Assembly (NCBI GenBank): GCA_963719525.1
Contig: CAVRCG010000004.1
Location: 925,579-989,578, forward strand
Origin: an uncultured Cytophagales bacterium
GTDB lineage: Bacteria > Bacteroidota > Bacteroidia > Cytophagales > Bernardetiaceae
Direction: 5' to 3'
DNA length: 64,000 nt
Shown here one piece after another: positions 31,478 through 61,258 of this stretch. The notes under the pieces are model-generated. The model saw only the letters and a list, made by a program, of their open reading frames with translations, was not told the DNA's origin and did not search any database. Each line of letters begins with the position of its first letter. The first letter of the stretch is position 1. A program made the position numbers and the translations under genes.

Positions 31478-33985
31478 TTATTCAATTTCCGTATTTTCGG
31501 ATATTTTCAAACTATTCAAAACAGAACTAAGCTGCGTTCCTTTTAAAAGATTTCCGAAGACATCTGCAATAGATTTTCCTCCCAAAATAGCTAATGGAGC
31601 CATAGAATCTGCCATTTTCTGAGCGAGTTCTTTATCAGAAAACGATTGTAATGCTGCAATCAAATCTGGAGAAATAGCTTTTGCTTTTGCTACAACAGCT
31701 TCTACTTCGGTTTGCTCTTCCAAAATAAACTGCTCTAATTCTCTTTGTGCTTTTTCCAACTCAAGGTTATTAATAGATTTTTGACGTGAGAGTTCATCGT
31801 CATTGATTTGATTAAGCGATTTTTGCTCGTCTAATCGTGCTTGCAGATGACGTTCCTTACTAATTATCTCACTCTCAATTTTTGATAAAGTTACTTCTAA
31901 AAGTTTTTGAGTTTCTTGTCTTTGTAGGTCGTAAATGGTTTGTTTGGTTTGGGACTGCGTGGCTGCAATCTGACGAGTAATGGCTTCACTTTCTTGTGTG
32001 AATTCTAATTTTCGTTTTTCAGAATTAATACGCAACGTTTGCATAACGGTATCTTGCTGTGAAGAAATAAGTAAGTTTTCAATGTTTGCATCTCCCAAAC
32101 TAATATCCAAAATTTCTACGTCATAAATACGCATTCCGTTTTCTTCAAAGAGTCGTCCTGTTCGTTTTCCTGTTTTCTTGTCGTTTTCTCCCAAAATAGC
32201 ATCTCTCAAAATCGTAATTCCGTTGGCGTAAAATTCCATAATCGGATATTTTCTGACTGTATTACGAATATAAGAGCGCATGTGGTCTGTTAGAAACTTA
32301 ACATAATTTTCCACATTAAACCATTTATCCGAACTTCCTTCAAAATTGACACGGTAGGAAAGACTGAGTTTTACCTGCGTATAATCTGCTGATTCTGCAA
32401 AAATTTCATCAGAAACTTTATTATACAACACTCTCAAATAAACGGTTTTGATAGAATTTTCTGTCGTTTTTGGTGTTCCTGTCGAAAGCTCAATTCCCTC
32501 TAATTCTTCATCATATTCCAACAAATAGGATTGAGAGCATCTTCAATAACTTTGCGCTTTCCTGTCTTGCTGACCACCAAAACAGCATAACCTGTCCAAG
32601 GCGCAATCGTAACTGCTCCCTCAAATTTTGTATCTAGCGTAATCATACGAGGAGGTGTAAACGAATTATCACGATTAAACTCATCACTAATTACGCTACT
32701 AGAAATTTTTTGCTTTTTATTGAGTTGCTCTTGTGGTTTTGGTGGAGCTTGATTCTGCTGCTGCAATTCAAAATCAGTAACAAAATTATCGTTTTTGGCA
32801 ATATCTTGTAAAGCCATATTGTACTTCATCGCTTCATTATTATTCGGAAACCAAAGCGAAGTCTGACTTTTTGTAAGCACACGACGCACCAAAACAAACT
32901 CTCTAGGATCTGGCAAAAACATCGCTGCCCCTTTCATAAGTGCAACCGTTCCTGTCTTTCTATTGAGATAATAACGTCCTTCTCCTGCTGGAATAGCAAT
33001 TGCATAATGGCGTTCTTTGTTTCCATAACGCACAACGGCATGTTCTGGACGAGGGTAATAAATCATTTGATCTTTTCCTGTAATAAAAAGTTCGTCGCCT
33101 TCTTTGTATTCATTTTTTCCTTCTTTATAAGGTGCAATTACTTTTATATACAAACCACTCATTTCATTGAGTTCGATGGCTTTAAATTTTCGTTGTCCAT
33201 TTTTTTCAATAAACTCTTCTGAAGGTTCTGGGAAAACTACTTTTGGTTCATTGAATATATCTTTTATTTCCGTCTTCATTAAGTAAAATACAATATTCCA
33301 AACGCTCTAAAGTTACGGCTTCACGCACATATTCATCGTTTTCGTAAGAATACATAGGCTCTGTACGAACTACTTCAATTCCTGTTGGTGGAATATAAAA
33401 TGAAACGGCATCACCACGAATAATCAAAAGTTGTCCCATAGTAAGACTTTCGGCAACTTCTTTGAGTTCTTTTATTTCATTTTTGACTTCTTTTTTTTCT
33501 CCTTCTTTTGTTTTGATAACTGATTTGCCCCAATTTTCTCTTGCCTGCACTTCATCATAGACACGAACCAACAAATATTGATTCGAACTTAGATTATGAC
33601 CGTGAACAACTCGTGCCATTTGTCCTGCCCAAAGTGCAAAAGAAATTGCGCCGAAATATTTACTTTTCGTCCTACATTCAATTCTACCAAATTATTGCTC
33701 GTTCCTGTTTTTGGTGGATTTGTATCTTTCGAAAGGATTTTTCAGAACTACATACCAACCTTCTGGAGCAATCACAAAAGCTCTCATCGCTTCTTCTAAA
33801 TTACATTTTTCGAAACGCTTAGTAGCATCATCGAACATAACAGGACGGTCAGTATTTGCAAGGCTTGTTTTGTAAGGACCTACATAAACATTAATATTTC
33901 CCTTTGTTTGGTCGGAAATAAAAGCGTATTCGTTGGGAGCTAAAACTAAATCTCGTTCTCGGCTTTCTCGGCTTGTGTCAGACAT
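31478..33985 (-). CDS. major vault protein (MVP) homolog, fragmented into four ORFs in different frames
   Basis: N-terminal ORF (…LAPNEYAFISDQTKGNINVYVGPYKTSLANTDRPVMF…RAFVIAPEGWYVVLKNP) aligns with eukaryotic MVP repeat 1 (…[36 protein letters not shown]…RMVTVPPRHYCTVANP); following ORFs continue MVP-repeat-like segments, then an SPFH/band-7-like shoulder and a long Q/E-rich coiled-coil cap helix in 31478..32524. Confidence 0.65.
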
Positions 33986-39961: not shown

Positions 39962-40501
39962 TTGTCTTTAGCTTACCAACTACCTATCCTTATGCCTATT
40001 TTAGAAATAAACGAAAAAGAACATGAACTTCTCCAACAGATAAGCAAAAGCCAAAAGTTATCTGTTCGGCTTGTTAAGCGAGCTACTCTTTTGTGTTCCT
40101 TTCACCTTCATAAGCGTTATTCAGAAACGAGTTCCTCCTTACAAGTATCTATAAATTTTGCACGCCAATGGGTTAGCACTTGGAATAAAACTGCTCTCAT
40201 TCGTCAAAATTTATATTCAGCTTATATTCAAGGAGAATTGAAAGAATTTGAATACCGTAAAGAATTACTATCTATTTTATCAGATAAGCCTCGTAGTGGT
40301 TCGCCTCGTAAATTCACAGAATCAGAGCGCAGTCAAATTGTTGCTTTGGCACTCCAAAACCCCTCTGATTTAGACTTGCCTTTTACGCATTGGAGTCAAG
40401 AATTACTAAAAACGGAAGTGATAAAACGAAATATTGTTGCAAGTATAAGTCAACGGCAAATCTGCCGAATTTTAAAAAAATCAGCGTTTATCTCCTCATA
40501 A
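39962..40501 (+). CDS. IS630-family transposase, N-terminal HTH part (orfA)
   Basis: 179 aa; …SDKPRSGSPRKFTESERSQIVALAL… typical of IS630/Tc1 DNA-binding region. Confidence 0.75.
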   Translation: MSLAYQLPILMPILEINEKEHELLQQISKSQKLSVRLVKRATLLCSFHLHKRYSETSSSLQVSINFARQWVSTWNKTALIRQNLYSAYIQGELKEFEYRKELLSILSDKPRSGSPRKFTESERSQIVALALQNPSDLDLPFTHWSQELLKTEVIKRNIVASISQRQICRILKKSAFISS

Positions 40502-40574: not shown

Positions 40575-41282
40575 TTGAATGCAAGGGCTGAGGAGTTGTA
40601 TGAATCAGGTATTCATCTTATCAGCACAGATGAAAAAACAGGAATGCAAGCCTTAGAACGTCAACATCCAACGATGCCACTCAAAGAAGGAGTGTGTGAA
40701 AAACGTGAATTTAACTATGTGCGACATGGTACACAAGTTTTGACTGCAAATCTTGAAATAGCAACAGGAAAAAGTATCTCTCCTACAGTAGCCGATACAC
40801 GCAAAGAAGAAGATTTTGCAACACATATTGAAAATACAATAGCCACAGATCAAACAGGAGAGTGGATATTTATTGTTGACCAACTTAATACACACAAATC
40901 AGAAACGTTAGTGAGGCTGGTAGCAAAATCTATTGAAGACGAGCAAGATTTAGGAGTAAAAGGTAAAAGTGGTATTTTGAAAAATCAAAAGACAAGAATG
41001 GCATATTTAGAAAACAAAAAACATAGAATTCGTTTTGTCTTTACACCTAAACACTGTTCTTGGCTCAATCTAATAGAATGCTTTTTCTCTGGGTTTGCTA
41101 AACGAGTAATTCACAGGGGAAATTTTTTATCTACACAAGATTTAAAAAATAAAATTCTAAAGTATATGGAGTATTACAACGAAAATTTAGCAAATAAATT
41201 TAACTGGACAGTAGCTTCAAATGAAGATATTAAAAAAATGATACAAAAGGTAAAAAGATACGTGATTAAATTTATGGCTTGA
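40575..41282 (+). CDS. IS630-family transposase, DDE catalytic part (orfB, +1 frame)
   Basis: 235 aa; …HLISTDEKTG… (D), …IFIVDQLNTHK… (D), …SWLNLIECFF… (E) DDE triad; frame open upstream to the A7 run at 40474-40480. Confidence 0.75.
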   Translation: MNARAEELYESGIHLISTDEKTGMQALERQHPTMPLKEGVCEKREFNYVRHGTQVLTANLEIATGKSISPTVADTRKEEDFATHIENTIATDQTGEWIFIVDQLNTHKSETLVRLVAKSIEDEQDLGVKGKSGILKNQKTRMAYLENKKHRIRFVFTPKHCSWLNLIECFFSGFAKRVIHRGNFLSTQDLKNKILKYMEYYNENLANKFNWTVASNEDIKKMIQKVKRYVIKFMA

Positions 41283-41336: not shown

Positions 41337-41690
41337 ATGAGAAGAGTTGATAAACAACTTCTAACATTTGTAAAGTTATTGAGTAAAGAAAACCAAGAAA
41401 AGGTTTTAAGGATAACTGAAGAATTGATAGAAGAACAACTAAAAGAACAAAGGAAATTCGTAGATTCTCTTACAGAACCTTTATTTGAAGAGCAACCTTC
41501 TTATAATGAGAATGATATTTGGGAAATAATTTATAAATTCCCTGCTGAAAAACTATGGACTTTTTACGATTTAGACCACCCACTTGTTTTCCCACCTGAT
41601 TTGATGGTAAAAGTAGAAATACTGGATTATAGAATCTATGTTAATGGCTGTCCTAATCCAAAACTATTTACTGTAAAAAAGAAATTGTAA
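41337..41690 (+). CDS. hypothetical protein
   Basis: 117 aa ORF adjacent to IS630 end; no motif. Confidence 0.3.
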   Translation: MRRVDKQLLTFVKLLSKENQEKVLRITEELIEEQLKEQRKFVDSLTEPLFEEQPSYNENDIWEIIYKFPAEKLWTFYDLDHPLVFPPDLMVKVEILDYRIYVNGCPNPKLFTVKKKL

Positions 41691-41791: not shown

Positions 41792-43129
41792 TTGATTGAA
41801 AAAATGAAAAATATAGAAAACATAAAAAAAGCCATTTCTTTACAAAAAGAATTAGACGAATTACGTCCTTTGAGTAAAGAACAGAATCAAAAAGTACTAC
41901 AAAAATTTAGATTAGATTGGAATTATCACTCCAATAATATTGAGGGAAATTCACTTACCTATGGAGAAACAAAACTTTTGCTTTTACATGGACTTACAGC
42001 ACAAGGAAAACTACTAAAAGATCATTTGGAGATAACAGGACACAATGAAGCAATGGATTGGATTTTTGATATTGTAAAAAAACAAGAACCAATCACAGAA
42101 CATTTTATTCGTTCTCTGAATGAAATGCTTTTGGGAAGTGAGCCGATTCATAAAAAAGCTATTGATAGAGAAGGAAATGAAACTACAAGAATTATTCAAG
42201 GTGGAAAATATAAAACGCAGCCTAATCACGTTCTGACCAAAACAGGAGAAACATTTTACTTTGCTTCGCCAGAAGAAACACCATCAAAAATGTATGATTT
42301 ATTGCAATGGTACGAAACTGAAAAACAAAACAAAGAACGAGAACCGATTATTTTAGCAGCACAATTTCACTACAAATTTATCCGAATACATCCTTTTGAT
42401 GATGGAAATGGAAGAACAGCACGGCTACTGATGAATCTTATTTTGATGCGTTTCGATTTTCCTCCTGCTATCATAAAGACAAACGACAAAGAAAATTATT
42501 ACAACGTTTTGCGACAAGCCGATGGAGATAATATTGTTCCTTTTATAGATTACATTGCTCAAAATATCATTCATTCGTTAGAAATTATGATTTCGGCAGC
42601 AAAAGGAGAAGATATAAGTGAACCGAATGATTTAGATAAAGGGATTGCACTTTTAGAACAACAGCTTAAAACGGCTACGAGTGAGTTATTAATAAAAGTA
42701 TCTTTAGATATACGACAAAGTATTTTTGATGAAGAATACAGAAGAATAAAACATTTCTTTTTTGGTGAAAATAAAAAATTTGCAAAACTTTATCACGAAT
42801 ACGACCAATACACAGAAGAATTAGATTATCATAACATACCAGAAATTAGTATTTTAGATGAAGGAGGAGATTTTTTAAGAATAGAATCTAGTTTTCATAA
42901 TTTAAAATATGACGGTTTTGAAAAATTTAAACATTCAAGTTGGATAGAAATTAGATTTAGTGAATTTAAGTATATTGTTTGTGATAGTAATGAAAAAATA
43001 ATTATTCAAAAAAAATACAACCAACAACTCACAGACCAAGAAATAAAATCTTTAGTAGAAGCAGAAACGACTTTGCATAAAGAATTGATAGCTCAAAAAA
43101 TAAAGGAATATCAGAATAAAGACAATTAA
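41792..43129 (+). CDS. Fic-domain protein (AMPylator family) with intrinsic inhibitory motif
   Basis: 445 aa; Fic motif HPFDDGNGRTARL; N-terminal SNNIEGN fits the (S/T)xxxE(G/N) auto-inhibitory helix of class II Fic proteins. Confidence 0.85.
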   Translation: MIEKMKNIENIKKAISLQKELDELRPLSKEQNQKVLQKFRLDWNYHSNNIEGNSLTYGETKLLLLHGLTAQGKLLKDHLEITGHNEAMDWIFDIVKKQEPITEHFIRSLNEMLLGSEPIHKKAIDREGNETTRIIQGGKYKTQPNHVLTKTGETFYFASPEETPSKMYDLLQWYETEKQNKEREPIILAAQFHYKFIRIHPFDDGNGRTARLLMNLILMRFDFPPAIIKTNDKENYYNVLRQADGDNIVPFIDYIAQNIIHSLEIMISAAKGEDISEPNDLDKGIALLEQQLKTATSELLIKVSLDIRQSIFDEEYRRIKHFFFGENKKFAKLYHEYDQYTEELDYHNIPEISILDEGGDFLRIESSFHNLKYDGFEKFKHSSWIEIRFSEFKYIVCDSNEKIIIQKKYNQQLTDQEIKSLVEAETTLHKELIAQKIKEYQNKDN

Positions 43130-43249
43130 TAAAAAATCAACATTTTAAATAAACTAAATTTTAATTTTTTCGTTACTTTTTGTAACTTGCAAAGTTTTGT
43201 TTTTGATTCTATTGCTATTAAACAGACCATTTTTTAAACTTTATTTTTT

Positions 43250-43669
43250 ATGAGTACTACCAATACAGAAAATTTTTTATTCGAAAATGAGTATGTTCTT
43301 TTCGATGTTACCAAATTTCCATTTATCTACATAGAACATACAGCGCATCAGCCTACACCAGAAGAATTTAATGACTACATAAATTGTATGAGTAGAGCCT
43401 TGTTGCGAAATGAACCCTATGTTTTGCTTGTCGATATGAGCAAAGTAGAATATCTGAATACTGAATACAGAACTATTAGTGAGAATTGGAATAAAACTAA
43501 TTCTGCTCATTTGGGTAAACATTGTAAAGGTGCTGCTAATTTGGTGCGTGATGAAGAACAAAAAGCAATATTGAATTATGTACTCAAATTAGCGTATGAC
43601 ATAACTTATCCAAATTTTGTTACTGTAAGTAAAGAAAAAGCAGAGCAATGGTTGGAAGGAAGAGTTTAG
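43250..43669 (+). CDS. small protein, tandem paralog 1 of 4 (unknown function)
   Basis: 139 aa; shared motifs FLFENEY-LFD-TKFP, CKGAAN, EQWLEGRV. Confidence 0.6.
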   Translation: MSTTNTENFLFENEYVLFDVTKFPFIYIEHTAHQPTPEEFNDYINCMSRALLRNEPYVLLVDMSKVEYLNTEYRTISENWNKTNSAHLGKHCKGAANLVRDEEQKAILNYVLKLAYDITYPNFVTVSKEKAEQWLEGRV

Positions 43670-43705
43670 ATTTTAAAACAGTGCTATAATTATGAATTTA
43701 ATTTT

Positions 43706-44122
43706 ATGGATAATTTTAATGTAAAAGAATTTCGTTTTGAGAATGAGTATTTTCTATTTGATGCAACTAAGTTTCCTTATTTGTACATAAGATTTAAAAT
43801 TGAAAAGCCGAACAGGAAACAGTTTGATGAGTATTTATATTGTCTGAATAACGTCATTCTACAACCTCAAAATTACGTTCTTTTTTCTGAACTCAAAGAA
43901 ACAGAATATATACAAGCCGAATTTAGAAAGGAGTTAGACAGTTGGCTTATCAAAAATATTGGACACATTAATCAATATTGTAAAGGTGCTGCAAATGTAG
44001 TAGCCGATGAAAATCAAAGACTACTTTTGACTCAAATGGTAAAAGCTCATCAACCAGTTTACCCTGTTTTTATTACCGATGACGAACAAAAAGCGAAAGA
44101 GTGGCTAGAAGGAAGAGTTTAG
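43706..44122 (+). CDS. small protein, tandem paralog 2 of 4
   Basis: 138 aa; FRFENEYFLFDATKFPYLYI…CKGAANVV…KEWLEGRV. Confidence 0.6.
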   Translation: MDNFNVKEFRFENEYFLFDATKFPYLYIRFKIEKPNRKQFDEYLYCLNNVILQPQNYVLFSELKETEYIQAEFRKELDSWLIKNIGHINQYCKGAANVVADENQRLLLTQMVKAHQPVYPVFITDDEQKAKEWLEGRV

Positions 44123-44158
44123 AAATTAATAAAACATTTTTTTAACTTTATTATCACT

Positions 44159-44575
44159 ATGAAAAATACTGAACCATCAAAATTTCTTTTTGAAAACGAT
44201 TATTGTCTTTTTGACTCTACTAATTTTCCTCATTTGTACATGAAGTTTAAAATTGAAAATCCTGATAAAAAGGAATTTTATGAATATTTAGACTGTATGA
44301 ATAAAATTTTGCTTCACGATAAAAAATATATTGTATTGGTGGAGCTAAACGGTTCGGAATATCTAAAAGCTGAATTTAGGAAAAGGTTAGCCGAATGGAA
44401 CGATGAGCATCATGAAATATTGAAAAAATATTGTAAAGGAGTAGCTTATATTAGCCATTCAGAAGAACAAAGGACGATGCTAAAAATTATTTTAGATGGT
44501 TATGTCTTGCCTCATCCTGTTGTGGTAACAGACACGCAAGAAAAAGCTGAAAACTGGCTGGCAAACAGAATTTAG
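44159..44575 (+). CDS. small protein, tandem paralog 3 of 4
   Basis: 138 aa; FLFENDYCLFDSTNFPHLYM…CKGVAYISHSEEQR…ENWLANRI. Confidence 0.6.
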   Translation: MKNTEPSKFLFENDYCLFDSTNFPHLYMKFKIENPDKKEFYEYLDCMNKILLHDKKYIVLVELNGSEYLKAEFRKRLAEWNDEHHEILKKYCKGVAYISHSEEQRTMLKIILDGYVLPHPVVVTDTQEKAENWLANRI

Positions 44576-44622
44576 ATTCAGAAAAATACTATTGATCATA
44601 TAAATCATTATCTTGTTTTGTT

Positions 44623-45039
44623 ATGAATAATTTTAATCCGAATGAATTTTACTTTGAAAATGAATATTTCTCTTTTGATGCAACAGCATTTCCATATATT
44701 TACATAAAATTCAAACCTCAAGTAGCTGAAAGAGAACAGTTTGATGGTTACATTCATTGTATGAATAAAATTCTTTTACAGGAAAAGTTTTATGTAATTT
44801 TGATAGAACTAGCAGATTCGGAATATTTAAAAGCAGAATTTAGAAAAGAACTAGCAGAATGGAACGTTAAATATATAGCACACATGGGCAAGTTTTGCAA
44901 AGGAGTAGCACATATTAGCCATTCGGAAGAGCAGCGTGTTATGATGAAAACAATTTTGAATAGTTATGTTTCGCCTTATCCTGTTGTGGTAACGGACACG
45001 CAAGAAAAAGCTGAAAATTGGCTGGCAGGACGAGTATAA
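44623..45039 (+). CDS. small protein, tandem paralog 4 of 4
   Basis: 138 aa; FYFENEYFSFDATAFPYIYI…CKGVAHISHSEEQR…ENWLAGRV. Confidence 0.6.
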   Translation: MNNFNPNEFYFENEYFSFDATAFPYIYIKFKPQVAEREQFDGYIHCMNKILLQEKFYVILIELADSEYLKAEFRKELAEWNVKYIAHMGKFCKGVAHISHSEEQRVMMKTILNSYVSPYPVVVTDTQEKAENWLAGRV

Positions 45040-45192
45040 TTATTACATAATTATTTTCTAGCCTAAAATTTTTATAACAAAAAAGGTTCTTTAAGATTGT
45101 GTATATTTGTATCTATCAAATTACTATGGCATTTTTTTATTCGTAGTAATTCTCAAAAAACATAACCTTCAAAAATACATAAATCTAAACGC

Positions 45193-46482
45193 ATGCAATT
45201 CACAACCCTCAACGTAAATAATCCAGAACTAAAATCGTTTGTCGAAGTAAAAAAAGATTCTGACTTTCCAATTCAAAACCTACCTTTTGGTATTTTTTCT
45301 ACTGCAAACCAAGATGCTCGTATAGGCATTCGAATTGGAGATTTTGTGTTAGATTTAGCAGAACTTTCAGATTTAGGATTACTAAACGATTTAGAATTTG
45401 ACCAAAGTGTTTTTTATGAAAACGTTCTTAATCCATTTATAGAATTAGGACGAAAAAATTGGAGAGCAACTCGTGGAAAAGTGTCAGAGTTATTACAGCA
45501 CGGTTCTAAATTAGAAGAATACGTTGAAAAGCATAAAGATTCAAACAAAGTTCTCTTCAAAATTGAAGACGTAACAATGCACATGCCTGTAAAAGTTGGG
45601 GATTATACCGATTTTTATTCTAGCATCGAACACGCTACCAATGTAGGAAAAATGTTTCGTCCTAATGGTGATGCACTTCTTCCAAATTGGAAACATATTC
45701 CTGTAGGTTATCACGGTCGTGCTTCTTCCATTGTCGTTTCTGGTACAGAATTACACAGACCAAAAGGGCAGATTATGCCGAAAGATGCAACAGAGCCTAT
45801 TTTTTCGCCTTGTAGATTATTAGATTTTGAGTTAGAAATGGCTTTTATTGTTGGAAAATCCACAAAATTAGGAGATTCTGTAACGATTGATACGGCAGAA
45901 GCACATATTTTTGGAATGGTCGTTTTTAATGATTGGTCGGCTAGAGATATTCAAAAGTGGGAATATGTTCCCTTAGGGCCTTTTTTAGGCAAAAGTTTTG
46001 GTTCTTCTATCTCGCCGTGGGTCGTTACCCTTGATGCTTTAGAACCGTTTAGAGTAGCAAGTCCGAAACAAGAGCCAGAAGTTTTGGATTATCTAAAATA
46101 TACTAGCGACCACAATTTTAATATTAATTTAGAAGTAGATTTGATTCCACAAGGAAGCGAAGCGACTACAATTTGCCGTTCTAATTTCAAACATTTGTAT
46201 TGGAATATGGCGCAGCAACTTACCCATCACACCGTAAATGGATGTAATATTAATGTAGGCGATATGTGTGCTTCGGGTACAATTAGTGGAAAAGATGAAA
46301 ATTCGTATGGTTCAATGTTGGAGCTTTCGTGGAGTGGTCAGAAGACAATTGCTTTAAATGGAGGCGAAGAGCGCAAGTTTATTCAAGATAACGATACGAT
46401 TGTAATGCGTGGATTCTGTAAAAATGATTCTGTCAGAATTGGTTTTGGAGAAGTGAGTGGAAAGATTTTGCCTGCAAAGTAG
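45193..46482 (+). CDS. fahA: fumarylacetoacetase (FAH)
   Basis: 429 aa; N-terminal FAH domain (…NLPFGIFST…) and C-terminal hydrolase core (…DFELEMAFIVGK…). Confidence 0.85.
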   Translation: MQFTTLNVNNPELKSFVEVKKDSDFPIQNLPFGIFSTANQDARIGIRIGDFVLDLAELSDLGLLNDLEFDQSVFYENVLNPFIELGRKNWRATRGKVSELLQHGSKLEEYVEKHKDSNKVLFKIEDVTMHMPVKVGDYTDFYSSIEHATNVGKMFRPNGDALLPNWKHIPVGYHGRASSIVVSGTELHRPKGQIMPKDATEPIFSPCRLLDFELEMAFIVGKSTKLGDSVTIDTAEAHIFGMVVFNDWSARDIQKWEYVPLGPFLGKSFGSSISPWVVTLDALEPFRVASPKQEPEVLDYLKYTSDHNFNINLEVDLIPQGSEATTICRSNFKHLYWNMAQQLTHHTVNGCNINVGDMCASGTISGKDENSYGSMLELSWSGQKTIALNGGEERKFIQDNDTIVMRGFCKNDSVRIGFGEVSGKILPAK

Positions 46483-46512
46483 ATTTGCATTAGCTAATAA
46501 AAGTAATAACGA

Positions 46513-46543
46513 AACCATTCTTCATTGAAGAGTGGTTTTTTTG
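46513..46543 (+). terminator. rho-independent terminator after fahA
   Basis: aaccattcttca-t-tgaagagtggtt stem (1 mismatch) + T6. Confidence 0.5.
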
Positions 46544-46668: not shown

Positions 46669-48078
46669 TTGACCAATAAAATCCTGTCTAAAAATAATTT
46701 ACTTTCAGAATTTAATGCTCGCAAACTATCTTATGTTTCGAATCGCATTCAGATTTTTTATGTAGATGAAAAAGGATTTATTACAAATACGTGTCAAGGA
46801 ATTTGGCAAATAAATCAGAAGGAAGAAACTAATTTTTTTGAAGTTTTTCAAAATTTCGAATTGCATAAAGAAGCTATTGATTTTCTATTTTCTACCAAAG
46901 AAAAAGACGGAAAGAGTTTATCTATAACTAATTTAGAAATTGTTTTTGAAGAGGAAGTTTTTTTTGTAGATGTTATTTTCAAAACAATCAAAAACGAAAG
47001 TACTGATTTGTTTTTGGAATGTCTGGTAGAAGATAAAACAGATTATTATATTTCTTTGAACGAGCTAAAAGAAAATAATAAATTACAGGAAGTAGAATTT
47101 TTGAATGAAAAATGGCAGCTTACAAAAGACACAGAACTTTTGCAGGTCAGTCATCAAAAAGAATTGGCTACACTTGACGAACAGTTGCGATTAGACTGGA
47201 CAAATTTACTTGCTAGTAATTTGAAGAAAATAGCTACACAAAATTTTATTCAATCTGACCTTCAAAATGAGTTTAAAAGTAATTTTGAAAACCTAATTAT
47301 TTTATCCAATTCTTTCGAAAAAATAAGTGGAATTCGTCTTTTTCCTCAAACAACAGAAGCCTTTTTACCCAAAAGCAAAACAATTTCTTATTTGGGAGAT
47401 AATTTGGCTCATCAAAAATTAATTCAGAATATAGTAGAACTAGCTGGAGGAAAATTTTTAGAAATTGAGATACAAAAAGATTCAGAATTTGATTTAGAAT
47501 TTGATTTTTCTGGAATAGATTTTATTTTTGTAGAACAGAATACTACAATGAATGCTCAAAACAATCCTATTGCATCTTGTTTGCTTGTCGAAACTAATTT
47601 TTTAGAGAAAGAACAACATTTAATAAACAACAAAACAAATTTGTTGATTTATCCTTTATATCCTTTTCAGATTTGGCAACAACTACTATCCTTTACCAAC
47701 ACTAATACTATGAGTTACCACGAAAAAATTGACCTTTCTCAAATCTACGAAATTGTAGATAACGAACCGATGCTTGTGCAGAGTATGTTACAGATTTTGG
47801 ATAAAAACTTGAGAGAATATCCAGCGCAGTTACAGCAAGAATTTAACGACGGAGAATTAGACACGCTTCGCCAAACTGTTCATAAATTCAAGTCGTGTAC
47901 AGCTTATACAGGTCTGACAGAATTTAATACTACTCTTTCAGAAATTGAAGCCAGTCAAGAAAATGGTTGGACGATTGCACAAATCAAAGATAAATTAGAA
48001 TTTGTCTTGCAAGCCATTCCTGTAATTAAAGTGCAGGTAGAAGAGAAGTTACAGGAGTTGGAGAAAGAAATTTCTTAG
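46669..48078 (+). CDS. hypothetical protein with C-terminal Hpt (histidine phosphotransfer) domain
   Basis: 469 aa; C-terminal …LRQTVHKFKSCTAYTGLTEF… fits Hpt HxLKGxxxxxG motif; N-terminal 350 aa without motif. Confidence 0.45.
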   Translation: MTNKILSKNNLLSEFNARKLSYVSNRIQIFYVDEKGFITNTCQGIWQINQKEETNFFEVFQNFELHKEAIDFLFSTKEKDGKSLSITNLEIVFEEEVFFVDVIFKTIKNESTDLFLECLVEDKTDYYISLNELKENNKLQEVEFLNEKWQLTKDTELLQVSHQKELATLDEQLRLDWTNLLASNLKKIATQNFIQSDLQNEFKSNFENLIILSNSFEKISGIRLFPQTTEAFLPKSKTISYLGDNLAHQKLIQNIVELAGGKFLEIEIQKDSEFDLEFDFSGIDFIFVEQNTTMNAQNNPIASCLLVETNFLEKEQHLINNKTNLLIYPLYPFQIWQQLLSFTNTNTMSYHEKIDLSQIYEIVDNEPMLVQSMLQILDKNLREYPAQLQQEFNDGELDTLRQTVHKFKSCTAYTGLTEFNTTLSEIEASQENGWTIAQIKDKLEFVLQAIPVIKVQVEEKLQELEKEIS

Positions 48079-48963: not shown

Positions 48964-50550
48964 TTACACCCAAACAGCAAAAATCTCTTTACCGTTATGT
49001 TGTATTTTCTCTTCTTTCCAATTGGGTTTTTCTCTGTCATCAAAAATAAGCAAAAAACCATTTTCTACGCCGTGAATTTCTAAGTAATTTGAAAGTTGAT
49101 TCAATCCTTTTTCGTGTAATTTTTCTCCTCTCCAAATTTTGAGTTCGATAATATATTTCCATTGCAAGTACGTAACAACAATATCCAAACGCTTTTCCTC
49201 CGACGTTTCAACTTCTTTAAAATCGTGTCCTTGTCCGTTCAGAATGGGTTTTAGAAAAGCTAAGAAAATCAAACGCCATTCTCGTTCTATTATGTTTCTA
49301 TTTTTTTTGCTGTACTGCTCTTTCATAAAAGCCTGAAACTTTCGCAGTATAGTTTCCAAATCCAGACTGCCATCATCTTCTGTAAACTGACTACCCAAAA
49401 AACGTCCTGCACCTAATTGTCCTGCTTCAATAAGACGTGCTGTCATGTATCTATAAATGCGCTGTTCGTAAATGCGATTATGAATTTTTATTATTCCGTT
49501 CTCCTTAAAAATACCATACATAAATCCAATACGTGTGAGAGAAGTATCAGGATTGAAGGGTATGCGTTCTCCTTCTACCAAAACTCTGTAAGTCAAATCG
49601 TACAAACCTTTATTATTCTCTAAATTTTTTATCAAACTATCAAAATTCGTGTTATTTTCTTTTAGTAAAAATTGTACGCTTACTTCCAAATCATCTAATG
49701 TCCATCTATTTTTATCTTCTTTGTTTATTTCGCCTTTATTAGGTAAAATATCTTCTGCAATAGTTTTGCATAATTTGGAAACCAAAAACGGATAACCTGA
49801 CGTATAATAATAGAGTTTTTCTGAAAACTGCTCAAAATCAATTTGCACATTTTCGGCTTCACTATACTGTTTGAGCATAAAGGCAATTTCATTTGGATAA
49901 AATTCCATTACAACCTTAAAATCAGCAGCAATATTCCACGGACTGTTATATTGAGTGTCCTCAGGATTACGTAACTTGAATTTTAAAGATTTGATGTCGT
50001 GTACTCCTGCCAAAACAATGCTATGAAAAGTGTAATGTTGAGGCAAATCTCTGCTCAAATATTTGGTACGCAACATACCCAACAAAACCAAAAAAGGCTC
50101 GTAATTACTACTTGCATCGACTTCATCTATGAGCAAAACTATTTTTTTTGAAGTCAGATGAACAATATCGGTTATAATGCTTGAAAGTTCTTCAATAGTT
50201 TGGGGTAGAACCAACTCCGTTAATTTGTCTTTTCCTTCAAATTCTTTAGAATAATTTAAAGAACGAAGTAGCTGTGTATAAAAAAACTGTCCGAAGGCAA
50301 TATCACTTTTGTAAGCCGAAGAACTTACTCCTTGAAAATTCATCAGAATAGGTAAGTAATCTTTTCTTTCATTCAATAGTCTATGTAAAGCAAAAAGCAT
50401 CGTCGTTTTTCCATACTGACGAGGACGATTAATAACAAAATAATCTCCATACTTTACCATCTTCATAATTCCTGCAAAACGACGACTATCGTCCATCATA
50501 TAATGCTCCGATGGGCGACATGTACCTGTTATATTAAATCCTTTTTTCAT
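48964..50550 (-). CDS. AAA-ATPase-like domain + PD-(D/E)XK nuclease (PDDEXK_9) family protein, copy 1
   Basis: 528 aa; Walker A RPRQYGKTT, Walker B LLIDEVD; C-terminal D…ELK nuclease core (RLDIVVTYLQWKYIIELKIW). Confidence 0.8.
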   Translation of the reverse strand: MKKGFNITGTCRPSEHYMMDDSRRFAGIMKMVKYGDYFVINRPRQYGKTTMLFALHRLLNERKDYLPILMNFQGVSSSAYKSDIAFGQFFYTQLLRSLNYSKEFEGKDKLTELVLPQTIEELSSIITDIVHLTSKKIVLLIDEVDASSNYEPFLVLLGMLRTKYLSRDLPQHYTFHSIVLAGVHDIKSLKFKLRNPEDTQYNSPWNIAADFKVVMEFYPNEIAFMLKQYSEAENVQIDFEQFSEKLYYYTSGYPFLVSKLCKTIAEDILPNKGEINKEDKNRWTLDDLEVSVQFLLKENNTNFDSLIKNLENNKGLYDLTYRVLVEGERIPFNPDTSLTRIGFMYGIFKENGIIKIHNRIYEQRIYRYMTARLIEAGQLGAGRFLGSQFTEDDGSLDLETILRKFQAFMKEQYSKKNRNIIEREWRLIFLAFLKPILNGQGHDFKEVETSEEKRLDIVVTYLQWKYIIELKIWRGEKLHEKGLNQLSNYLEIHGVENGFLLIFDDREKPNWKEEKIQHNGKEIFAVWV

Positions 50551-50822: not shown

Positions 50823-52424
50823 TTACACCCAAACAGCAAAAATCTCTTTACCGTTGTGTTGAATTTTCTCTTCTTTCCAATTGGGTTTTTCTCTATCATC
50901 AAAAATAAGCAAAAAACCGTTTTCTACGCCGTGAATTTCTAAGTAATTCGAAAGTTGATTTAATCCTTTTTCGTGTAATTTTTCTCCTCTCCAAATTTTG
51001 AGTTCGATAATATATTTCCATTGCAAGTACGTAACAACAATATCCAAACGCTTTTCCTCCGACGTTTCAACTTCTTTAAAATCGTGTCCTTGTCCGTTTA
51101 GAATGGGTTTTAAAAAAGCTAAGAAAATCAAACGCCATTCTCGTTCTATTATGTTTCTATTTTTTTTACTGTACTGCTCTTTCATAAAAGACTGAAACTT
51201 TCGCAGTATAGTTTCCAAATCCAGACTGCCATTATCTTTTACAAATTGACTGCCTAAATAAGATTCTTTTAGATTGTATTGCTGCTCGTGGAGCGTTTTT
51301 ACTAAGCGATTATTTGTCATATAATTATAGATGATTTGCTCATAAATGCGATTATGAATTTTGATAATCCCATTTCCTTTAAAAATCCCATACATTTCCC
51401 CCAATCGTATAGAACTTACGTGAGGATCATAAGGCACTTTAGAACCCTCCAGTAGAATAGCTTCAACCAATCTGTATAAACCTTCGTTGTTCTCTAAATT
51501 TTTTATCAAACTATCAAAATTCGTATTATTTTCTTTTAGTAAAAATTGTACGCTTACTTCCAAATCATCTAATGTCCATCTATTTTTATCTTCTTTGTTT
51601 ATTTCGCCTTTATTAGGTAAAATATCTTCAGCAATGGTTTTGCATAATTTGGAAACCAAAAACGGATAACCTGACGTATAATAATAGAGTTTTTCTGAAA
51701 ACTGCTCAAAATAAATTTGTACGTTTTCGGCTTCACTATATTGTTTGAGCATAAAAGCAATTTCATTTGGGTAAAATTCCATCACAACTTTAAAATCAGC
51801 AGCAATATTCCACGGACTATTATATTGAGTGTCTTCAGGATTACGTAACTTGAATTTTAAAGATTTGATGTCGTGTACTCCTGCCAAAACAATGCTATGG
51901 AAAGTGTAATGTTGAGGCAAATCTCTGCTCAAATATTTGGTACGCAACATACCCAGCAAAACCAAAAAGGGTTCGTAATTACTACTTGCATCGACTTCAT
52001 CTATAAGCAAAACTATTTTTTTTGAAGTCAGATGAACAATATCGGTTATAATGCTTGAAAGTTCTTCGATAGTTTGGGGTAGAACCAACTCCGTTAATTT
52101 GTCTTTTCCTTCAAATTCTTTAGAATAATTCAAAGAACGAAGTAGCTGTGTATAAAAAAACTGTCCGAAGGCAATATCACTTTTGTAAGCCGAAGAACTT
52201 ACTCCTTGAAAATTCATCAGAATAGGTAAGTAATCTTTTCTTTCATTCAATAGTCTATGTAAAGCAAAAAGCATCGTCGTTTTTCCATACTGACGAGGAC
52301 GATTGATAACAAAATAATCTCCATACTTTACCATCTTCATAATTCCTGCAAAACGACGACTATCGTCCATCATATAATGCTCCGATGGGCGACATGTACC
52401 TGTTATGTTAAATGCTTTTTTCAT
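50823..52424 (-). CDS. AAA-ATPase-like + PD-(D/E)XK nuclease family protein, copy 2 (tandem duplicate)
   Basis: 533 aa; >95% identical to copy 1 except a divergent ~80-aa internal cassette (residues ~320-400). Confidence 0.8.
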   Translation of the reverse strand: MKKAFNITGTCRPSEHYMMDDSRRFAGIMKMVKYGDYFVINRPRQYGKTTMLFALHRLLNERKDYLPILMNFQGVSSSAYKSDIAFGQFFYTQLLRSLNYSKEFEGKDKLTELVLPQTIEELSSIITDIVHLTSKKIVLLIDEVDASSNYEPFLVLLGMLRTKYLSRDLPQHYTFHSIVLAGVHDIKSLKFKLRNPEDTQYNSPWNIAADFKVVMEFYPNEIAFMLKQYSEAENVQIYFEQFSEKLYYYTSGYPFLVSKLCKTIAEDILPNKGEINKEDKNRWTLDDLEVSVQFLLKENNTNFDSLIKNLENNEGLYRLVEAILLEGSKVPYDPHVSSIRLGEMYGIFKGNGIIKIHNRIYEQIIYNYMTNNRLVKTLHEQQYNLKESYLGSQFVKDNGSLDLETILRKFQSFMKEQYSKKNRNIIEREWRLIFLAFLKPILNGQGHDFKEVETSEEKRLDIVVTYLQWKYIIELKIWRGEKLHEKGLNQLSNYLEIHGVENGFLLIFDDREKPNWKEEKIQHNGKEIFAVWV

Positions 52425-54940: not shown

Positions 54941-55321
54941 ATGGGTGCTAAAAAAATACTTATTGCAGAAGATAGTTCTGTAATTCAAAACATTACTCGC
55001 AAAGTATTGCAGTTTCAAAATTATGAAATCGAAACAGCAAAAGACGGTTTGCAAGTATTAGAAGCAATGGCAATGGAAGATTTTGATGCTATTTTAATGG
55101 ACATCAATATGCCAAAAATGGACGGAATGGAATGCGCTAAGAAAATCCGTGCAATGAGTGACCCTAAGAAATCTAAAATTCCAATTATTGCAATTACTGG
55201 AAATGCTCGTAATTATACCTCAAAGGATTTTAATGCCGTAGGAATTAATGATTACATGCAAAAGCCTGTAAATTTTGATGATTTGGTAGAAAAATTGTCT
55301 TCGTATTTAGATGATAAATAA
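54941..55321 (+). CDS. single-domain response regulator (CheY-like receiver)
   Basis: 126 aa; …ILIAEDSS…DAILMDINMPKMDG…IIAITGNA… receiver motifs (DD…D…T…K). Confidence 0.85.
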   Translation: MGAKKILIAEDSSVIQNITRKVLQFQNYEIETAKDGLQVLEAMAMEDFDAILMDINMPKMDGMECAKKIRAMSDPKKSKIPIIAITGNARNYTSKDFNAVGINDYMQKPVNFDDLVEKLSSYLDDK

Positions 55322-60562: not shown

Positions 60563-61258
60563 TTGTTTATGTCTATTCTTCAAACTGTTCGTACTTCTAC
60601 TCGTTCAAAACACGATTTAATGGAAAATCTCATTGGTTCAGACCGTTTGAGTGAATTTTCTATTGAAGATTATATATTACTCTTGAGTACAAATTTTATT
60701 TTTCATTCGCATTTGGAAGAAAAAGTAAAAGAGTTTTTGCTAGAAGAAGAAGCGCAAAACGAATATAAAAAGGAAGCTCAAAAGGAGGATAAAAAGAACA
60801 ATAAAAAGAACAATAAAAACAAGGAACTAGAGAATAAATGGATTACAAAATTTGATTTTGACGAACGTATAAAAGCGATTGTCTTAGAACAAGAATTGAA
60901 AAATATACTTCCTCCTTCAACTTTTAAAGAAGTAAAGGCTATTCAAAATACAGTTTCGTTTTTAGATTATCACTCTCTTTTGGGGCGTGTTTATGTAGCA
61001 GAGGGTTCAATGTTGGGAGGAAAAATGATGCAAAAAATATTAGCCCAAAATGAGCAAATAAATCAGGTTACAAATTTTGATTTTTTCAAGAGTTTTGAAG
61101 GAACAGCTTTTCCTCTTTGGAAATCGTTTAAAGAATTGGTAGAAGAAGAATGTGTTACTGAAAAACAACAAGAAAATTTTTTAAATGGTGCAGAAAAATC
61201 TTATCTCTATTTCGAACAATCATTTTATAAAGCTAAAAACATTTTACAATCAAAATGA
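60563..61258 (+). CDS. bphO: heme oxygenase (BphO-type)
   Basis: 231 aa; …LGRVYVAEGSMLGGKMMQKIL… matches the HO distal-helix motif (Y.RYLGDLSGGQ.L); immediately upstream of a bacteriophytochrome. Confidence 0.65.
   Translation: MFMSILQTVRTSTRSKHDLMENLIGSDRLSEFSIEDYILLLSTNFIFHSHLEEKVKEFLLEEEAQNEYKKEAQKEDKKNNKKNNKNKELENKWITKFDFDERIKAIVLEQELKNILPPSTFKEVKAIQNTVSFLDYHSLLGRVYVAEGSMLGGKMMQKILAQNEQINQVTNFDFFKSFEGTAFPLWKSFKELVEEECVTEKQQENFLNGAEKSYLYFEQSFYKAKNILQSK

What the first reader, a model, noticed from the sequence alone, without database searches (positions are those of the whole stretch)
43250..45039. Four tandem paralogous ~138-aa genes of unknown function downstream of a Fic protein
Four consecutive same-strand genes with 37-48-bp spacers encode proteins sharing a strict pattern: F-x-F-E-N-(E/D)-Y-x-(L/F)-F-D-x-T-x-F-P-x-(I/L)-Y-(I/M), a central C-(M/L)-(N/S) box, C-K-G-(A/V)-A, (E/D)-E-Q-(K/R), P-V-(V/F)-(V/I)-T-D and a C-terminal E-K-A-E-x-W-L-x-(G/N)-R. 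I cannot place them in a named family; they have a STAS/SpoIIAA-like flavour but no phosphorylatable-Ser context is evident. Paralogs 3 and 4 are most similar, suggesting recent duplication. Tandem paralog arrays next to a Fic AMPylator and an Hpt-domain protein suggest a diversified partner-switching or immunity-like set.
Basis: seen in the sequence. Interest (0 to 1): 0.6.

Follow-up and report, generated by a model that had tools for sequence, protein, structure and literature searches.

The report
Old four-gene array of STAS-like proteins
Four neighbouring genes encode old, diverged copies of a small protein with the SpoIIAA/STAS-type fold, from a little-known family (DUF7793-like) confined here to a few Cytophagales genomes; they are real and under selection, their function is unknown, and the link to the neighbouring Fic gene is not required to keep them.

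Summary
Four same-strand ORFs (139/138/138/138 aa, spacers 36/36/47 bp) are 40-61% identical.

The close subfamily has about 11 sequences in roughly six Cytophagales lineages.

The duplications are old. Each copy has its own orthologue type elsewhere (bootstrap 98-100%), gene order is conserved, dS is saturated, and dN/dS is 0.1-0.3. Relatives keep 2, at least 2, 1 plus a pseudogene, or 1 copy.

Fic was ancestral at the locus. It was deleted in one relative and is absent in two others, and intact copies persist there.

No kinase or phosphatase lies nearby, and no Ser/Thr caps helix α2. Distant relatives have no Fic or Hpt neighbours.

Best reading, at low confidence: non-phosphorylated ligand- or partner-binding modules with diverged specificity. 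This is a new member of a known but uncharacterised kind, of modest interest.

The parts
43250..43669 (+). Copy 1 (type 1), 139 aa, SpoIIAA-like/DUF7793-like protein. It is the most divergent copy and has Val instead of Ser/Thr at position 66.
   Evidence: ORF. PF11964 E 0.005 and PF25056 E 0.037. Its orthologue is L002_a (57% identity, bootstrap 100%, dN/dS 0.29).
43706..44122 (+). Copy 2 (type 2), 138 aa.
   Evidence: ORF. Orthologues are L002_b (77%, dN/dS 0.12), P0007 and P0011 (bootstrap 98%). A decayed type-2 copy lies at L001 9528-9938.
44159..44575 (+). Copy 3 (type 3), 138 aa.
   Evidence: ORF. It groups with L004_a and P0008 (bootstrap 99%), with dN/dS 0.16.
44623..45039 (+). Copy 4 (type 4), 138 aa. 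This is the protein that was modelled.
43177..43196 (+). Conserved block TTTTTGTAACTTGCAAAGTT, about 55-68 nt upstream of the first array gene. It is a candidate promoter or operator belonging to the array itself.
   Evidence: GTA[AC]CTTGC occurs once in the 64-kb window. Near-identical blocks lie upstream of the first copy in L001, L013 and L020, whatever the upstream gene is. Its function is inferred, not shown.
41792..43129 (+). Fic protein (class II type, with its own inhibitory helix motif). It is an ancestral but dispensable neighbour and is not shown to be part of the system.
   Evidence: PF02661 E 2.6e-22. Motifs. PADLOC PDC-S04 4e-36 and SoFic 1.3e-29. Orthologues lie upstream of the copy in L004 (75%) and L013/L014 (72%). 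A deletion remnant is present in L002.
45102..45109 (+). TATATTTG, a Bacteroidota-type -7 box inside a conserved block upstream of fumarylacetoacetase. It marks the start of a separate transcription unit downstream of the array.
   Evidence: The block ATAACAAAAAAGGTTCT..GATTGTGTATATTTG is conserved in the window, L002 and L004, and partly in L001. TAnnTTTG is enriched in the window, 182 found against 106 expected. The only terminator-like hairpin follows FAH, at 46511-46539.

Best explanation
Shown: the four genes are functional, anciently diverged paralogues. They represent four orthologous types kept in a fixed order 1-2-3-4. They form a lineage-restricted subfamily of single-domain, cytoplasmic, roughly 16-kDa proteins with the SpoIIAA-like fold (STAS / Sec14 superfamily). 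They are homologous to Pfam DUF7793 and structurally closest to DUF3478 (PF11964). The subfamily adds an N-terminal strand carrying an invariant F-x-F-E-N-x-Y motif, two invariant Cys (C46, C92) and an invariant E67-Y68.

Inferred (about 0.35): they act as non-catalytic binding or switch modules that are not controlled by the canonical STAS serine phosphorylation. They would hold a small, probably amphipathic or non-polar ligand, or a protein partner, on the face formed by α1, α2, α3 and the β-sheet floor. That face carries the conserved Y43, Y68, R74, W80, C92-x-G-x-A and R105, as proposed for DUF3478 and as seen in Sec14/CRAL-TRIO. The shared N-terminal motif points to a common function. The type-specific residues at the β4-α3 loop and β5 (positions 97-101 and 111-122) suggest that the four types differ in specificity.

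The array probably has its own promoter, and it evolves by gene loss among close relatives. The neighbouring Fic gene is an ancestral neighbour and is not required for keeping the array.

Confidence is about 0.9 for fold and family and about 0.35 for the mechanism. The single figure given (0.45) is for the statement as a whole.
For: Reality and selection: E-values between copies are 1e-33 to 1e-56. dN/dS is 0.10-0.29 for orthologue pairs and below 0.5 for paralogue pairs within the window.

Family: the exhaustive HMMER search finds 410 representatives at E<1e-3 but only 4 at E<1e-30. Among the hits is P0028 (E 8.7e-14), which carries a precomputed PF25056 domain. hhalign between the subfamily and the wider family gives probability 99.9% over 129 columns. 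18 of 43 sampled relatives hit DUF7793 and 5 hit PF11964.

Conserved Y43 (α1), W80 (α2) and A130-x-x-W133-L134 (α4) correspond by position in the helices to the conserved Tyr34, Trp71 and Ala120/Trp123/Leu124 of DUF3478. For DUF3478 a deep non-polar cavity between α2 and α3 and a carrier role were proposed (PMC2954212).

No phospho-switch: there is no GHKL kinase or PP2C within about 15 kb. The α2 N-cap positions are not Ser/Thr.

Four types and gene order.

Independence from Fic.
Against: No ligand, cavity or partner was observed. The tools return no model coordinates, so the spatial clustering of conserved residues is inferred from secondary structure only.

The match to DUF3478 residues is by position in helices, not by a residue-level structural alignment.

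An invariant Cys pair and the invariant E67-Y68 with a nearly invariant Ser/Thr at position 66 could instead mark a catalytic, redox or modification site.

Fic was adjacent to the array in four of six lineages, counting one remnant, so a functional link with Fic is not excluded.

The gene neighbourhoods of distant relatives are heterogeneous and give no positive clue to a ligand.
Confidence: 0.45

Rival explanations
1. Partner-switching antagonists without a kinase. The STAS-like copies bind and release a regulatory partner. The switch would be covalent modification of the β3-α2 loop (Ser/Thr66 or Tyr68) by the adjacent Fic AMP-transferase, or input from the Hpt phosphorelay protein, rather than a SpoIIAB-type kinase.
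For: The fold is that of anti-sigma antagonists and SiaC. Ser/Thr66 is present in 10 of 11 subfamily members, next to the invariant E67-Y68, in the loop that precedes helix α2. The type-specific residues lie in the neighbouring β4-α3 loop. Fic has an intact active site and was ancestrally adjacent to the array. An Hpt gene is kept nearby in four lineages.
Against: Copy 1 has Val at position 66. Ser/Thr66 is not conserved in the wider family, where Ala is commonest, then Ser, then Val. The true α2 N-cap positions are not hydroxyl residues. There is no kinase, phosphatase, sigma or anti-sigma gene nearby. Intact copies persist after Fic deletion (L002) and without Fic (L001, L020). The array seems to have its own promoter block irrespective of Fic. 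No paper combines Fic AMPylation with STAS domains. FAH, with its own promoter and terminator, separates the array from the Hpt gene.
Confidence: 0.12
2. An antitoxin or immunity set for the Fic protein. The Fic would be a SoFic-like toxic AMPylator, possibly with an anti-phage role, and the downstream small proteins would neutralise it. Several diverged copies would then be orphan or spare immunity genes.
For: The Fic matches the PADLOC candidates PDC-S04 (4e-36) and SoFic (1.3e-29). SoFic from E. coli has a small downstream gene, AS1, that counteracts its toxicity (PMC12249575). The region is variable, with an IS630-type transposase and a Uma2 fragment. Copy number varies among close relatives: 4, 2, at least 2, 1 plus a pseudogene, and 1.
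Against: AS1 is a 47-aa protein that does not resemble the 138-aa copies here in size. The Fic carries its own inhibitory motif S-x-x-x-E-G. There are four ancient types under purifying selection for a single Fic. Copies are kept intact where Fic is deleted or absent. The paralogues match no PADLOC or PHROG model. The wider family is not linked to Fic. NCBIfam SoFic scores 46 bits against a cut-off of 550.
Confidence: 0.08
3. An enzyme or accessory protein of tyrosine/homogentisate breakdown, for example a thiol-dependent, glutathione-independent maleylacetoacetate isomerase. The basis is that the last copy always sits directly upstream of fumarylacetoacetase and that one Cys is conserved.
For: FAH follows the array in every lineage where the downstream DNA is known: the window, L001, L002 and L004-6. 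C92 is invariant in the subfamily and present in 52% of the wider family. A pterin-4a-carbinolamine dehydratase gene lies a few kb upstream in L002 and L004.
Against: FAH has its own conserved promoter block. The window holds no HmgA, HppD or other pathway gene. FAH is widespread, whereas this subfamily exists in only a handful of genomes. Four paralogues are not expected for one isomerase step. I know of no enzyme with this fold (own knowledge). The synteny lies within one narrow clade.
Confidence: 0.04
4. Redundant or decaying duplicates with no distinct function.
For: Copy number differs among close relatives, and one relative has a pseudogene with three in-frame stops.
Against: All four window copies are intact. 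dN/dS is 0.10-0.29 against orthologues despite saturated dS. 25 columns are invariant across 10 sequences.
Confidence: 0.02

Closest known systems
Pfam DUF7793 (PF25056), uncharacterised stand-alone ~130-aa proteins of bacteria and giant viruses
   Same: Same size and single-domain architecture. Shared conserved positions are D19, P24, F40, Y43-L44, D/E62, R74, W80, C92-x-G-x-A, R105, L108, P118-x-P120, A130 and W133. The subfamily profile finds bona fide members at E 1e-13 to 1e-17, and hhalign gives 99.9%.
   Different: Single copies score only 14.5-19.8 bits against the gathering cut-off of 26. The subfamily has an extra N-terminal strand with F-x-F-E-N-x-Y, C46, E67-Y68, K93, Q104 and a fixed W-L-E-G-R-V C-terminus. 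It occurs as a multi-type tandem array. DUF7793 itself has no known function.
DUF3478 / SpoIIAA-like family PF11964 (structures 2q3l and 2ook, Shewanella)
   Different: Sequence identity is 17-19%. The scores are below the Pfam cut-off of 25 bits. There is no sequence-level hit to any PDB chain. The DUF3478 signature residues His6/Gly7, His31 and Asp72/Asp73 are not evident here. The DUF3478 function (carrier of non-polar ligands) is itself only proposed.
STAS anti-sigma-factor antagonists (SpoIIAA, RsbV) and SiaC (DUF1987)
   Different: No hit to PF01740, PF13466 or DUF1987 at E<=1. No Ser/Thr at the α2 N-cap. No cognate GHKL kinase or PP2C phosphatase nearby.
Sec14 / CRAL-TRIO lipid-binding domains
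   Different: Those are larger eukaryotic domains with an added helical lid. There is no sequence similarity.
SoFic with its downstream antitoxin AS1
   Same: A Fic gene followed by one or more small downstream genes. The Fic here matches the PADLOC SoFic model.
   Different: AS1 is a 47-aa protein, unlike the 138-aa copies here (PMC12249575). The copies here outlive loss of Fic.

Membership tests
Pfam DUF7793 (PF25056) | Whole-protein hmmscan score at or above the gathering cut-off (26 bits) | tested here: not met
   The scores are 14.5, 18.9, 19.4 and 19.8 bits (E 0.037 to 8.6e-4) for copies 1-4.
Pfam DUF7793 (PF25056) | Demonstrable homology to accepted members by profile search | tested here: met
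   The subfamily profile hits P0028 (E 8.7e-14), which carries a precomputed PF25056 domain. hhalign gives 99.9% over 129 columns. 18 of 43 sampled relatives match PF25056. BFVD lists a 'DUF7793 domain-containing protein' among the top fold hits.
Pfam SpoIIAA-like (PF11964, DUF3478) | hmmscan score at or above the gathering cut-off (25 bits) | tested here: not met
   The scores are 18, 15.1, 16 and 13.7 bits.
Pfam SpoIIAA-like (PF11964, DUF3478) | SpoIIAA-like α/β fold superimposable on 2q3l | tested here: met
STAS partner-switching antagonists (SpoIIAA/RsbV type) | Match to the STAS domain models (PF01740 / PF13466) | tested here: not met
   No hit at E<=1 for any copy.
STAS partner-switching antagonists (SpoIIAA/RsbV type) | Conserved phosphorylatable Ser/Thr at the N-terminus of helix α2 | tested here: inconclusive
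   Helix α2 is residues 71-83 in the model. Positions 69-71 are L/I/M, K/N/Q/S and A/T. The nearest hydroxyl residues are Ser/Thr66 (Val in copy 1) and the invariant Y68, which lie 3-5 residues upstream. No residue-level structural alignment to SpoIIAA could be obtained.
STAS partner-switching antagonists (SpoIIAA/RsbV type) | Cognate GHKL serine kinase and/or PP2C phosphatase encoded nearby | tested here: not met
   Pfam scans of the long ORFs of the window found none. None was found in the related loci or next to distant relatives. The rest of the genome could not be searched.
Fic toxin-antitoxin (class I FicA/VbhA, or SoFic-AS1) | The small partner supplies the inhibitory (S/T)xxxE(G/N) helix, or neutralises toxicity | not testable with these tools
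   The Fic carries the motif itself (S47-NNI-E-G), as class II Fic proteins do (own knowledge). Neutralisation needs an experiment.
Fic toxin-antitoxin (class I FicA/VbhA, or SoFic-AS1) | Strict co-occurrence of the partner with Fic | tested here: not met
   Fic is deleted in L002, with remnants of its promoter and 3' end. It is absent in L001 and L020. It is absent next to distant relatives.
Known anti-phage defence components (PADLOC) / phage protein families (PHROGs) | Match to a model | tested here: not met
   The paralogues give no hits apart from one chance-level AbiEii hit, E 0.012.

The most novel reading that the evidence does not exclude
The array is the substrate or antagonist half of a kinase-less partner switch. 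The neighbouring Fic enzyme would AMPylate the conserved Ser/Thr66-Glu67-Tyr68 loop of the STAS-like proteins, in place of the serine phosphorylation used by all known STAS switches. The four ancient types would give four differently tuned outputs. Alternatively they would act as interchangeable neutralisers of a defence-type Fic.
Probability: 0.07. Interest if true: 0.8.

Novelty: new member of a known kind. Interest (0 to 1): 0.3.

Why it matters
As it stands, this is a fold-level annotation of four hypothetical proteins. It also documents how a small paralogue array evolves by differential loss. It gives the uncharacterised DUF7793-like family a confident structural placement in the SpoIIAA-like fold, closest to DUF3478. 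It also supplies a set of invariant residues to mutate: F9/F11/E12/N13/Y15, C46, E67/Y68, R74, W80, C92/K93 and R137. If the low-probability Fic link were real, it would be the first STAS-type switch driven by AMPylation. The data here lean against an obligatory link.

Tried and rejected
1. Sequence searches of the PDB with three profiles (A1, A3, A4) found no meaningful hit, so the link to solved structures rests on fold only.

2. The AlphaFold database (afdb50) fold library was unavailable.

3. The word-index protein search with a broad, gappy alignment (A3) was unproductive. The clean A4 alignment gave 31 hits.

The scan with A2 gave only three short contigs. The genome-collection scan found a single species representative. 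The viral-contig scan found no close relative.

5. The lookup of the sister sequence P0012 found no contig. Cluster lookups returned no names or accessions.

6. Recent duplication or gene conversion was rejected. dS is saturated. The only hint is 82% nucleotide identity over the last 138 nt of copies 3 and 4, with pS 0.32 in codons 106-135. That is old and may be chance.

7. The sigma-70-type promoter scan was uninformative, with 29 sites against 35.5 expected. The leader motif CATTTTTTWAAC is not enriched in the window, with 10 matches against 8.9 expected, so I do not treat it as a specific signal.

8. Rfam found nothing in the window.

9. Type-specific positions rest on only 2-4 sequences per type and are indicative at best.

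10. I did not align residues to SpoIIAA or 2q3l, because no coordinates or residue-level structural alignments are returned.
Full report
**1. Observation**

The spacers are 36, 36 and 47 bp. Pairwise identity is 40-61%, with 35 invariant columns. tblastn E-values between copies are 1e-33 to 1e-56, and the 64-kb window holds no fifth copy.

Upstream lies a Fic gene (41792-43129; PF02661, E 2.6e-22), with an intact HPFDDGNGRTAR active site and an N-terminal S47-NNI-E-G inhibitory motif. Downstream lie fumarylacetoacetase (FAH, 45193-46482) and then a 469-aa protein with a C-terminal Hpt domain.

**2. What the proteins are**

All four copies give consistent but sub-threshold Pfam hits to DUF7793 (PF25056, 14.5-19.8 bits, cut-off 26) and SpoIIAA-like (PF11964 = DUF3478, 13.7-18 bits, cut-off 25). 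They give no hit to the STAS models and nothing in NCBIfam.

**3. How big the family is**

The word-index search of 5.8 billion clusters found only ten proteins, four of them from this genome. The exhaustive HMMER search of 1.84 billion representatives found 410 at E<1e-3 and 42 at E<1e-10, but only four at E<1e-30. These are stand-alone proteins of about 130 aa. One of them (P0028, E 8.7e-14) carries a precomputed PF25056 domain. 18 of 43 sampled relatives match DUF7793 and 5 match PF11964. hhalign of the subfamily against 50 distant relatives gives 99.9% over 129 columns.

So the four genes form a divergent, lineage-restricted branch of the DUF7793-like family.

Family-wide conserved positions are D19, P24, F40, Y43-L44, D/E62, R74, W80, C92-x-G94-x-A96, S101, R105, L108, P118-x-P120, A130 and W133. 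Specific to the subfamily are the N-terminal strand with F9-x-F-E-N-x-Y15, C46, E67-Y68, K93, Q104, T124 and the fixed C-terminus W-L-E-G-R-V.

**4. Age and dynamics of the array**

Each window copy groups with a copy from another genome rather than with its neighbour:
- Copy 1 groups with L002_a (57%).
- Copy 2 groups with L002_b (77%), P0007 and P0011.
- Copy 3 groups with L004_a and P0008 (59-61%).
- Copy 4 groups with L001_a (74%).

Bootstrap support for these groups is 98-100%. A copy 3 + copy 4 pairing gets 1%. Synonymous sites are saturated for every pair (dS 0.9 to above 3). dN/dS is 0.10-0.29 for orthologue pairs and 0.17-0.46 for paralogue pairs within the window. Even the most similar stretch of copies 3 and 4 (the last 138 nt, 82% identical) has pS 0.32. 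The duplications are therefore old, not recent.

Gene order is conserved and relatives have lost members:
- L002 has types 1-2.
- L020 has type 2 followed by the start of a type-3-like copy.
- L001 has a decayed type-2 copy followed by an intact type 4. The decayed copy (9528-9938) is 54% identical to copy 2, has stops at the E12, W80 and W133 codons, and carries a palindromic insertion.
- L004/5/6 and L013/14 have type 3 only.

The sister group (36% identity) also occurs as a tandem pair in L021. All carriers are close relatives, with MutS 93-96% identical. The one named record is an uncultured Cytophagales MAG. Between the same genome pairs, the copies diverge as fast as or faster than their neighbours: dN is 0.13-0.28 for the copies against 0.02-0.18 for MutS, FAH and the Hpt gene.

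**5. The Fic and Hpt neighbours**

Fic orthologues (72-75% identical) sit directly upstream of the copy in L004 and L013/14. In L002 the spacer between the 117-aa gene and the first copy retains the Fic promoter block (43 nt, 93%) and the Fic 3' end (46 nt, 80%). This shows a clean deletion of Fic. L001 and L020 have other upstream genes. Fic was thus ancestral at the locus but is dispensable: intact copies under purifying selection remain without it.

A block TTTTTGTA(A/C/T)CTTGC lies 55-68 nt upstream of the first copy in the window, L001 and L013. In L020 it lies further upstream, past inserted repeats. It is present whatever the upstream gene is, and it occurs once in the whole window. I read it as the array's own promoter or operator; this is an inference.

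FAH follows the array wherever downstream DNA is known. It has its own conserved block ending in the Bacteroidota-type -7 box TATATTTG. The only terminator-like hairpin lies after FAH. The Hpt gene is a further unit downstream, and in L001 it is separated by two HYR-domain genes.

Because all these genomes are close relatives, the synteny carries little independent weight. Six neighbourhoods of distant relatives, about four of them independent, show the following:
- an α/β-hydrolase gene plus a DSBA gene;
- a DSBA gene;
- Hcp, patatin and MFS genes;
- a LysR regulator and a FAD monooxygenase;
- two related giant-virus-like contigs with a fused topoisomerase II.

None shows Fic, Hpt, a kinase or a phosphatase. 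The long ORFs of the window include no GHKL anti-sigma kinase or PP2C. The paralogues match no PADLOC or PHROG model. The Fic matches PDC-S04 and SoFic.

**6. Mechanism**

Shown:
- the fold;
- homology to DUF7793;
- purifying selection;
- four old types in a fixed order;
- independence from Fic for retention;
- absence of the canonical STAS switch components nearby.

Inferred: the proteins are non-catalytic binding or switch modules. The closest structural relative, DUF3478, has a deep non-polar cavity between α2 and α3 with a β-sheet/α1 floor, open and closed states, and a proposed carrier role (PMC2954212). Its conserved Tyr (α1), Trp (α2) and A-x-x-W-L (α4) have positional counterparts here: Y43, W80 and A130-x-x-W133-L134.

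The motif invariant across all four types (F-x-F-E-N-x-Y, E67-Y68, C46/C92) argues for a shared core function. Positions that separate the types cluster at the β4-α3 loop and around β5 (97-101 and 111-122), which argues for diverged specificity.

I put this reading at about 0.35. The rivals are a Fic- or Hpt-driven partner switch (0.12), a Fic antitoxin or immunity set (0.08; the precedent is SoFic-AS1, PMC12249575), an accessory of homogentisate breakdown (0.04) and decaying duplicates (0.02). The remaining probability is 'something else'.

**7. Comparison and novelty**

This is a new, divergent member of a known but uncharacterised kind: the DUF7793 / SpoIIAA-like superfamily. It is not a member of the STAS partner-switching family by any feature tested. 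It falls below Pfam's cut-offs for both DUF7793 and PF11964, yet it is clearly homologous to the former and shares its fold with the latter.

A specialist would find the fold assignment and the loss-driven evolution of the array tidy rather than surprising. Interest is 0.3. The most novel reading not excluded is a STAS-type switch driven by Fic AMPylation. I give it a probability of about 0.07, and it would be of high interest if true.

Noticed in passing
L001 9528-9938 (pseudogene); L001 9420-9533 (insertion): A decayed type-2 copy of the family lies just upstream of the intact copy. It has in-frame stops at the E12, W80 and W133 codons. Near its 5' end there is an insertion of about 115 bp with inverted termini (TATCACGGTT...AACCGTGATA) and internal hairpins, which looks like a MITE or REP element.
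   Followed up: partly
window 41337-41690: The 117-aa ORF is 52% identical to the N-terminal 108 residues of a 256-aa Uma2-family (PF05685) protein in L004, so it looks like a truncated Uma2 gene. Against L002 it is 99% identical, with dS 0.08, whereas the flanking MutS has dS 0.43 and the paralogues about 1.0. This suggests a recent local exchange or an unusual constraint.
   Followed up: partly
window 39962-40501 and 40575-41282: An IS630-type transposase is split into an HTH_32 ORF and a DDE_3 ORF between MutS and the 117-aa gene. It is absent from the same position in L002 and L004. The split may be a programmed frameshift or a pseudogene.
   Followed up: no
window 20793-21668 and 21671-22855: An FtsH-like gene appears split. 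The 394-aa ORF starts inside the AAA domain (model position 38) and carries Peptidase_M41. It is preceded by a 291-aa ORF in another frame. This could be a frameshift in an essential gene or an assembly error, which matters for judging the quality of the assembly.
   Followed up: no
window 31478-32521 (-), with overlapping ORFs at 32500-33279 and 33248-33619 (-): One protein has a major-vault-protein shoulder domain (PF11978, E 2e-32). The adjacent same-strand ORFs have no Pfam match. Together they may be a split bacterial MVP-like gene.
   Followed up: no
L009, L017, L018 (distant relatives); BFVD hits: Distant DUF7793-like relatives sit on contigs with a fused 1128-1148-aa topoisomerase II and a kinesin-like gene, which look like giant-virus contigs. 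The best viral fold matches are from Chrysochromulina ericina virus, Marseillevirus ('DUF7793 domain-containing'), Aureococcus virus and Tetraselmis virus. The family therefore spans bacteria and Nucleocytoviricota.
   Followed up: partly
L021 224-682 and 730-1146: The sister group of the subfamily (36% identity, 138-152 aa) also occurs as a tandem pair with a 47-bp spacer. P0014 (286 aa) is a natural fusion of two such domains. Tandem duplication, and perhaps dimerisation, seems to recur in this family.
   Followed up: no
window 48964-50550 (-) and 50823-52424 (-): Two adjacent paralogous genes of about 530 aa each combine an AAA-ATPase-like N-terminus with a PD-(D/E)XK (PDDEXK_3) C-terminus.
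   Followed up: no
window 26199-26867 (-) and 26874-28295 (-): A DUF4276 gene next to an AAA_15/AAA_21 ATPase gene forms an OLD/ABC-ATPase-type pair of the kind seen in defence islands. The same pair lies upstream of the MutS region in L004. An IS110-family transposase sits at 23578-24582.
   Followed up: no
window 60563-61258 and 61316-63733; 54941-55321: A heme oxygenase gene is followed by a bacteriophytochrome histidine kinase (PAS_2-GAF-PHY-HisKA-HATPase). A stand-alone receiver protein lies a few kb upstream. These are possible phosphorelay partners of the Hpt protein at 46669-48078.
   Followed up: no
whole window: TAnnTTTG, the Bacteroidota -7 promoter box, is strongly enriched: 182 matches against 106 ± 10 expected. 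This fits a Bacteroidota (Cytophagales) origin. The sigma-70 consensus scan is not enriched.
   Followed up: partly
L020 566-894: The spacer upstream of the type-2 copy holds several palindromic REP-like units (for example CGCTTCCTCAGAAGCG and ACGCTTCTGAGGAAGCGT), inserted between the conserved promoter-like block and the gene.
   Followed up: no
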